In this document: in pieces, positions 41,685-42,577 of the stretch
Layout: every line of letters begins with the position of its first letter
Position numbering within the stretch: position 1 is the first letter of the stretch
Source of the DNA: Octopus vulgaris
Taxonomy: Eukaryota
Direction of reading: 5' to 3'
DNA length: 64,000 nt
NCBI GenBank assembly: GCA_951406725.2
Contig: OX597831.1
Location: 30,690,001-30,754,000 of the forward strand
Made by a program: the position numbers and the translations under genes
The notes under the pieces: model-generated
Told to the model about the DNA's origin: nothing
The model's database searches: none
Seen by the model: only the letters and a program-made list of their open reading frames with translations

Positions 41685-42577
41685 TACAGTTCTATATTTA
41701 AGAGATGAGGAACTATACACATCACCCACATCATTCACATCTGACGGACACCTGTCTCCATCTTGCTTATTGTTAACACAACCTTTCGGCTGATATACTC
41801 TCCAGTCTTCATCAGGTGTTATGGGAAATTTCGGACCTGGGTTCTCATACCTAAGGTATTTTTCGATGTTATTATTATTATTATTATTATTATTATTATT
41901 ATTATTATTATTATTATTATTATTATTCATCATTATTATTATTATTATTATTATTATTATTATTATTATTATTATTATTATTATTATTATTATTATTATC
42001 ATTATTATCATTATTATTATTATTATTATTATTATTATTATTAAGACTATATAGGACCGAGGTAACTCATCCAGGAGTTATACACAAATAAATAGAAGAG
42101 TGCCATGTCATGTGAAATTGGAAGGAACGCTAGATGCCGAAATATGGTTCAAAGAATTTCACATATAGCACTCTTCTATTTATTATTATTATTATTATTA
42201 TTATTATTATTATTATTATTATTATTATTATTATTATTATTGTTATTGCTATTATTATTATTATTATTATTATTATTGTTATTGTTATTGTTATTATTAT
42301 TATTACTATTATTATTATTATTATTATTATTATTATTATTATTATTATTATTATTATTATTATCATTATTGTTAGTGTTATTGTTATTGTTATTATTATT
42401 ATTATTATTATTTATTATTATTATTATTATTATTATTATTATTATTATTATTATTATTATTCAGGTCACTGCTTGGAATCGAACTCGGAATCTTGGGGCG
42501 TGTCAGCCGAAACGTTGTGTTAACAACAAGTAAGATGGGCACAGGTGTCCGTCAGATGTGAATGATGTGGGTGATGA
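41685..42577 (-). mobile_element. tRNA-headed, hammerhead-bearing Penelope-type element with inverted partial tail
   Basis: Minus strand: B-box head 42498-42461, (TAA)n, body 41870-41685 homologous to 57030-57176; inverted tail copy 42503-42577. Confidence 0.75.
41775..41820 (-). ncRNA. Minimal type-I hammerhead motif, degenerate copy
   Basis: aacac-CTGATGAA-gactgg agagtata tcagcc-GAAA-gg-TT-gtgtt; stem III palindrome broken. Confidence 0.6.

What the first reader, a model, noticed from the sequence alone, without database searches (positions are those of the whole stretch)
41719..42577. Dense A-to-G cluster: candidate genomic fossil of ADAR hyper-editing
Seen: the tail at 57140-57175 reads acaaatatccttcaaatgtaaataatgtaaataatg; the homologous tail at 42541-42576 (and its inverted twin at 41719-41755) reads acaggtgtccgtcagatgtgaatgatgtgggtgatg. 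Over these 36 nt there are 10 A/G differences and one other (t/g). Every changed A follows T or A; As following C are unchanged. Established: ADAR hyper-editing gives clustered A-to-I (read as G) with a 5' U/A preference, and coleoid cephalopods edit heavily. Inference: this insertion, or its master, was reverse-transcribed from hyper-edited RNA, fixing edits in DNA. Direction rests on only one comparison copy in this window.
Basis: partly seen in the sequence, partly recalled or inferred. Interest (0 to 1): 0.85.

Follow-up and report, generated by a model that had tools for sequence, protein, structure and literature searches.

The report
RNA editing frozen into retroposon DNA
One copy of a very common short jumping element carries 14 A-to-G changes packed into 54 bases, identical in both of its mirror-image arms where they overlap, likely because it was copied back into the germline genome from an RNA that the editing enzyme ADAR had already rewritten.

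Summary
Confirmed and strengthened. The locus is one insertion of a high-copy SINE-like retroposon with Penelope-type anatomy: a tail-outward inverted pair with a 33-nt extension on one arm. The family is A-rich (6180 tail matches). The G-rich tail occurs only in the two arms here and stands in contigs of three studies. The long arm has 14 of 27 As changed to G in 54 nt, 0 of 48 elsewhere, and no T>C; family background is 1.6% A>G and 2.0% T>C. Changes follow 5' T/A (13 of 20) over C/G (1 of 7), on the transcribed strand. Both arms share all 12 changes in their overlap. Two further loci show sense-strand A>G clusters; both T>C controls found none. Best reading (0.85): reverse transcription of ADAR-hyper-edited RNA, fixed in the germline. 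It is rare, and the duplex partner, the source copy and editing in RNA were not shown. The edits may serve as a barcode showing that one RNA templated both arms, though one other edited locus has discordant arms.

The parts
41685..41870 (-). Long arm: body, tail and 33-nt 3' extension of the retroposon (consensus 1-187)
41713..41766 (-). A>G cluster: 14 of 27 As (41766, 41758, 41752, 41751, 41749, 41741, 41736, 41732, 41727, 41726, 41725, 41723, 41718, 41713)
   Evidence: the bin 41737-41755 is covered in contigs of runs X1, X4, X2
41685..41717 (-). 33-nt 3' extension present on this arm only, like the optional Penelope 'tail'
   Evidence: 64 of 74 outward pairs carry it on exactly one arm; PMC8557442 passages
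41775..41820 (-). Hammerhead-like motif (CUGAUGA core, stem, GAAA); this copy has substitutions in it; no A>G here
   Evidence: read by eye from the consensus; no Rfam hit
41871..42043 (-). (AAT)n array, part 1 (expanded linker between head and body)
42044..42182 (.). Piece of a second repeat family with its own short inverted arm, lying inside the AAT array; likely a separate insertion; no A>G cluster (2 A>G in 82 nt)
42183..42462 (-). (AAT)n array, part 2
42463..42498 (-). 5'-truncated tRNA-like head (B-box-like part only); fixes the transcribed strand as the window minus strand
   Evidence: alignment to the head of natural copy L005; A/B boxes recognised by eye from recall
42499..42502 (.). 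4-nt junction between head and short arm, of uncertain origin
42503..42576 (+). Short inverted arm (consensus 79-152), no 3' extension; the same 12 A>G (42530, 42538, 42544, 42545, 42547, 42555, 42560, 42564, 42569, 42570, 42571, 42573); 5 of 74 positions differ from the long arm
56849..57178 (+).

Best explanation
This is a single retroposon insertion whose two inverted arms share a strand-specific cluster of A-to-G changes, likely because the RNA template was hyper-edited by ADAR before being reverse-transcribed into germline DNA. Shown: an A-rich ancestral state; 14 of 27 As changed in 54 nt with sharp limits; changes on the transcribed strand only; a 5' T/A bias; uniqueness in the assembly; presence in independent sequencing runs; both arms identical at all 12 overlapping sites. 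Inferred: (1) a source transcript was double-stranded over about consensus 105-160, most simply because the source copy had a short inverted arm and was read through (arms starting at 95-121 occur in 10 of 74 pairs); (2) ADAR deaminated about half the As there; (3) a Penelope-type reverse transcriptase read inosine as G, starting at the distal 3' site for the long arm and the proximal site for the short arm, so both arms came from one edited molecule or its cDNA; (4) the insertion was inherited and then decayed neutrally. It is most likely a functionless by-product: a fossil, not a device.
For: Polarity. Density and limits: (14/27 in the zone against 0/48 outside, Fisher 4e-8; 0 of 13 T>C). 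Background symmetric: A>G 124/7864, T>C 90/4488 in 140 copies not selected on the tail, with no 5' T/A bias. Neighbour bias 13/20 against 1/7, p=0.033. Unique. Real DNA. Two more sense-strand clusters: L189 (6 of 10 As, plus 6 G in the adjacent AAT array) and L190 (5 of 10 As); T>C controls 0 and 0. ADAR2-like gene present (E 3e-79). About 50% A>G in an inverted-repeat region is what a review reports for ADAR-type hypermutated avian retroviral sequences (PMC12925331 passage). Penelope RT extends both strands and starts at two sites 30-40 nt apart (PMC11167929 parts 1-2).
Against: No RNA evidence: no edited transcript was seen, and contigs cannot show it. The duplex partner is not identified: the element's own fold leaves most edited As unpaired (pairing probability under 0.4 at 11 of 14), and the present short arm (79-152) does not match the edited zone (106-159). 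The neighbour test rests on 27 As, and one change follows G. A 5' T/A preference is also the recalled signature of DNA polymerase eta. The same search found nothing else in three of four regions. L189 and L190 were found with a pattern that forces T/A-preceded sites, so their neighbour bias is not independent. In L189 only one arm is edited, so 'one RNA, two arms' is not universal.
Confidence: 0.85

Rival explanations
1. An error-prone DNA polymerase (eta or iota type, G opposite T) made the cluster during second-strand synthesis or repair of the insertion, and the other arm was then copied from it.
For: A 5' T/A bias is recalled as the polymerase eta signature; second-strand synthesis would also give sense-strand A>G; no duplex partner has been found for the RNA model.
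Against: 52% of As changed over 54 nt with no accompanying errors far exceeds recalled error rates and tract lengths of these enzymes; three loci show the same pattern and none the mirror pattern. Rates are recalled, not looked up (one search gave listings only).
Confidence: 0.05
2. The edits arose by ADAR one generation earlier, in a master copy that was itself a fossil and has since been lost or is unassembled, or one arm was overwritten by the other soon after insertion. ADAR origin stands, but the shared edits are then no single-molecule barcode.
For: Arms of ordinary pairs often share subfamily variants (site 130: both 11, one 8, neither 47). L189 and L190 share four changed sites and a rare G113A variant (5 of 215 copies), which hints at a common source.
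Against: No sibling with the G-rich tail in 2.8 Gb. The arms differ at 5 of 74 sites, like other pairs (median 7.6%), so there is no sign of ongoing conversion. Early conversion cannot be excluded.
Confidence: 0.25
3. The tail came from a different, G-rich repeat by recombination or template switch, with no editing.
For: These elements do form chimeric junctions.
Against: The differences are almost purely A>G; no donor within 3 mismatches exists; the best other genomic match to the arm is 88% and lacks the Gs.
Confidence: 0.03
4. Sequencing or assembly artefact, or chance neutral mutation.
For: Inverted repeats with microsatellites are hard to assemble; no single contig spans the stretch; X1 may be the assembly's own sample.
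Against: Contigs of two further studies (X4, X2) cover 41737-41755 without reversion to A; the arms carry independent private changes; chance probability 5e-19.
Confidence: 0.01

Closest known systems
ADAR-type A-to-G hypermutated avian retroviral sequences (Rous-associated virus, avian leukosis virus; seen only through a review passage, PMC12925331; one original was not held)
   Same: About half of the As read as G, in or near an inverted-repeat region of a reverse-transcribing element.
   Different: Here a non-viral, non-coding SINE-like retroposon of an invertebrate, present in several individuals' sequence data and so inherited; and the pattern is duplicated in two arms.
APOBEC G-to-A edited LTR retroelements fossilised in vertebrate genomes (PMC4866542 passages; PMC2873906 passages)
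   Same: A clustered, strand-biased deaminase signature fixed in genomic retroelement copies and polarised by the family consensus.
   Different: Different enzyme and substrate (likely RNA adenosine, not cDNA cytidine). That screen targeted G>A in LTR elements and found 19 invertebrate genomes at noise level.
Penelope-like elements and their non-autonomous derivatives (PMC8557442 passages; PMC11167929 parts 1-2 of 4; preprint 10.64898/2026.07.22.740005 passages)
   Same: Partial tandems, an inverted 5'-truncated copy at the 5' end, a 30-40 nt extension on one end, association with AT-rich microsatellite, hammerhead-like motif.
   Different: No ORF; a tRNA-like head as in a SINE; partner element not identified; Rfam recognises neither ribozyme nor tRNA.
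A-to-I hyper-editing of repeat-containing RNA in metazoans, strongest in octopus (PMC5625713 passages; PMC9068888 passages)
   Same: Clustered A>G, depletion of G upstream, abundant inverted repeats.
   Different: Those are RNA-versus-genome differences; here the Gs are in the genome.

Membership tests
ADAR hyper-editing signature | Dense cluster of A>G with other classes not raised | tested here: met
   14 of 27 As; one G>A, one C>T, no T>C in the zone
ADAR hyper-editing signature | Direction A to G against the ancestral state | tested here: met
   A-rich majority in 225 other copies; at most 2 G in the 100 listed of 6180 tail matches
ADAR hyper-editing signature | On the transcribed strand, without mirror T>C clusters | tested here: met
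   Strand set by the tRNA-like head; T>C controls 0 and 0 against 4 loci in four A>G searches, one of them compatible with chance
ADAR hyper-editing signature | 5' neighbour preference (U/A favoured, G depleted) | tested here: met
   T 6/7, A 7/13, C 0/4, G 1/3; p=0.033; small sample
ADAR hyper-editing signature | Cluster lies in double-stranded RNA | tested here: inconclusive
   Own fold does not pair most sites; inverted pairs are the family norm (74 outward, 17 tandem, 3 inward), but the source copy is unknown
ADAR hyper-editing signature | Same sites edited in RNA; dependence on ADAR | not testable with these tools
   Only contigs were available; an ADAR2-like gene is present
Penelope-type non-autonomous retroposon | Inverted 5'-truncated arm and tandem arrangements | tested here: met
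Penelope-type non-autonomous retroposon | 30-40 nt extension on one end only | tested here: met
   64 of 74 pairs
Penelope-type non-autonomous retroposon | Hammerhead ribozyme motif | tested here: inconclusive
   Core and stems visible by eye; no Rfam hit at gathering or E<=1
Penelope-type non-autonomous retroposon | 3' end shared with an autonomous RT + GIY-YIG element | not tested
   No partner search was made
tRNA-derived SINE | tRNA-like head with A and B boxes | tested here: inconclusive
   Box-like motifs recognised from recall in L005 and the window; no Rfam tRNA hit

The most novel reading that the evidence does not exclude
This genome holds a small class of germline retroposon copies that are DNA fossils of ADAR hyper-editing, and the private edit pattern acts as a single-molecule barcode showing that both arms of a Penelope-type inverted insertion can be reverse-transcribed from one RNA molecule, from its two start sites, with other insertions (L189) using two different templates.
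Probability: 0.55. Interest if true: 0.8.

Novelty: new variant of a known kind. Interest (0 to 1): 0.66.

Why it matters
It would be direct genomic evidence that A-to-I editing of retroposon RNA happens in the germline lineage and can be written back into inherited DNA. A 2016 review says a role of ADAR editing in Alu subfamily evolution had 'not yet been determined' (PMC4982230 passage). Four literature searches (listings seen, open-access library only) returned no report of germline ADAR fossils in SINE or Penelope copies, which does not prove there is none. It also makes an open question testable: how Penelope-type elements build inverted arms is unresolved (PMC8557442), and edited copies tell one-template from two-template insertions. 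The limit: events are rare (3 convincing loci in a family of roughly 30,000 arms, four regions searched), so the effect on genome evolution through this family is small.

Tried and rejected
G-rich subfamily: rejected. Family-wide A>G excess: none; T>C is slightly higher. In-place editing of this locus's own hairpin followed by RNA-templated repair: rejected, since it predicts T>C in one arm and a zone matching the arm overlap, and neither holds. Intramolecular fold as the duplex: not supported. Forced-G searches in the middle and the 3' extension found nothing; L191 (3 A>G) is compatible with chance and not counted as a fossil; L174 (4 A>G among other changes) is not counted either. The second family inside the AAT array shows no cluster. 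Rfam: no hit for ribozyme or tRNA; only microsatellite or hairpin matches below gathering scores. No RNA holder listed. Run X8 of a second organism holds the left flank but hardly covers the cluster, so presence in that organism is undetermined. The ORF list was uninformative. The family's published name was not found. No earlier findings were returned. No paper supplements were read; those of PMC4866542 may hold A>G cluster counts that bear on novelty.

Full report
Observation. The window lies in a 2.8 Gb genome in 227 contigs. An octopus is likely from size, contig numbering to C30 and microsatellite load, but that is recall and was not tested.

What the element is. The stretch belongs to a high-copy repeat: a tRNA-like head, an (AAT)n linker, a body of about 150 nt with a hammerhead-like motif, a short tandem tail and an optional 33-nt 3' extension. 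A degenerate tail pattern has 6180 exact matches. Only 25 of 123 fetched copies match that pattern exactly, so the family has roughly 30,000 arms. Among adjacent copies in the fetched loci, 74 are tail-outward inverted pairs, 17 tandem and 3 inward; 64 of the 74 carry the extension on exactly one arm. This is the anatomy described for Penelope-like elements (PMC8557442, passages), whose RT starts at two sites that bound the 30-40 nt extension and extends both DNA strands in vitro (PMC11167929, parts 1-2 of 4). Rfam recognised neither ribozyme nor tRNA and no autonomous partner was sought, so family membership is by anatomy only. The focal locus is one such pair: a long arm at 41685-41870 (minus) with extension, an AAT array interrupted by a piece of a second family, a truncated head, and a short arm at 42503-42576 (plus).

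Polarity and uniqueness. The majority state is A at every changed site. Of the first 100 listed tail matches none has more than 2 G at the 11 degenerate positions. The G-rich 36-mer with up to 3 mismatches occurs only in the two arms here, and a pattern needing at least 3 of 6 chosen A>G also returns only these. The best other match to the long arm is 88%.

Statistics. From 188 loci I extracted 227 distinct copies, 225 besides the two focal arms; 140 came from loci not selected on the tail. Their background is A>G 124/7864 (1.6%) and T>C 90/4488 (2.0%), with nine polymorphic columns left out, and no 5' T/A bias. The long arm has 14 of 27 As changed at consensus 106-159, 0 of 39 upstream, 0 of 9 downstream, and 0 of 13 T>C; binomial 5e-19 at 1.5% and 6e-8 at 10%, the zone being chosen after the fact. 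Of 211 other copies covering the zone, 112 have 0 A>G, 78 have 1, 18 have 2, 2 have 3 and 1 has 4. By 5' neighbour: T 6 of 7, A 7 of 13, C 0 of 4, G 1 of 3; T/A against C/G p=0.033. Depletion of upstream G is the shared metazoan ADAR motif (PMC5625713, passages). The changes are on the strand of the tRNA-like head.

It is in the DNA. Contigs of X1, X4 and X2 (three studies; X1 may be the assembly's own sample, X2 is only guessed to be RNA) cover 41737-41755 at depth 42, 19 and 23 with no reversion to A listed; one X2 contig shows the short arm's private letters. X8, of a second organism, holds the flank but barely touches the cluster.

Not a lone event, but rare. Four forced-G searches covered the 5' body, middle, tail and extension and two mirror T>C searches covered the tail and 5' body. 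Besides this locus, the 5' body search gave L189 (6 of 10 As, plus 6 G in the adjacent 12-triplet AAT array), L190 (5 of 10 As in one arm; three of them in the overlap and shared by the other arm) and L191 (3, compatible with chance). Both T>C controls gave 0; they had fewer degenerate positions than their counterparts. These patterns only see copies changed at the chosen sites, so counts are lower bounds, and the neighbour bias of L189 and L190 is partly built in. L189 and L190 share four changed sites and a variant found in 5 of 215 copies, hinting at one source. In L189 the partner arm is unedited.

Mechanism. An ADAR2-like deaminase is encoded. The simplest path: a source transcript was double-stranded over about 105-160, was hyper-edited, and was then reverse-transcribed, inosine read as G. 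The element's own fold does not pair most edited sites, so the partner was probably an inverted arm of the source; shorter arms starting at 95-121 occur in 10 of 74 pairs. This step is inferred. Both arms carry the changes as A>G in element sense, all 12 in the overlap, while differing at 5 of 74 other sites as ordinary pairs do (median 7.6% over 63 pairs). Editing of this locus's own hairpin would give T>C in one arm, so the edits predate the duplication. One edited molecule, or its cDNA, most likely templated both arms; a lost edited master or early conversion between arms remains possible.

Rivals. An error-prone polymerase shares the 5' T/A bias (recalled) but not, as far as I recall, a 52% rate over 54 nt with no other errors. 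A G-rich donor and artefact are excluded as far as these calls reach.

Known and new. ADAR-type A>G hypermutation near 50% is reported for avian retroviral sequences (review PMC12925331, passage), and APOBEC G>A fossils are known in vertebrate LTR elements, with invertebrates at noise level (PMC4866542, passages). A 2016 review called a role of ADAR editing in Alu evolution not yet determined (PMC4982230, passage). Searches (listings only) showed no report of germline ADAR fossils in SINE or Penelope copies; the library lacks most subscription papers.

Verdict. Real, well polarised, likely ADAR-derived (0.85); a new variant of a known kind; probably without function; valuable as evidence of germline editing and as a natural barcode for Penelope-type insertion. 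Interest 0.66.

Noticed in passing
L189:1100-1661 (G000:C1:113858006): Second A>G cluster: 6 of 10 As at consensus 10-29 plus 6 G in the AAT array just upstream; the inverted partner arm is unedited and lacks the G113A variant, so the arms had different templates.
   Followed up: partly
L190:1385-1796 (G000:C2:190895743): Third cluster: both arms share A>G at 19, 23, 29 and G113A; one arm also has 10 and 11. Shares sites and G113A with L189, a possible common source.
   Followed up: partly
window 42499-42502: The 4-nt junction could be read as the short arm extended by two further A>G absent from the long arm, or as filler from the head's 5' end; undecided.
   Followed up: partly
window 42044-42182; L066-L084: A second repeat family that also forms inverted arms and sits beside or inside AAT arrays; looks like another Penelope-type non-autonomous element.
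   Followed up: partly
L005/L029 (G000:C22:14416028-14416880): Head-to-tail tandem array of the whole element with a period of about 240 nt, resembling retrozyme arrays; a possible source-type locus.
   Followed up: no
consensus position 130 across the family: A>G variant in 36 of 214 copies that creates a CpG; shared by both arms in 11 pairs, one arm in 8. Subfamily marker, or an old fixed edit.
   Followed up: partly
window 41480-41565 and 41615-41680: Left flank holds another high-copy repeat with inverted ends; a contig of the second organism shows a strand switch between 41474 and 41616.
   Followed up: no
window 56747-56870: A 31-nt inverted duplication of the head's start flanks a long (TA)n run at the 5' end of the 57 kb copy.
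   Followed up: no
whole family: tRNA-like head joined to a Penelope-type 3' end: a SINE probably mobilised by a Penelope element; no published name found in two searches.
   Followed up: partly
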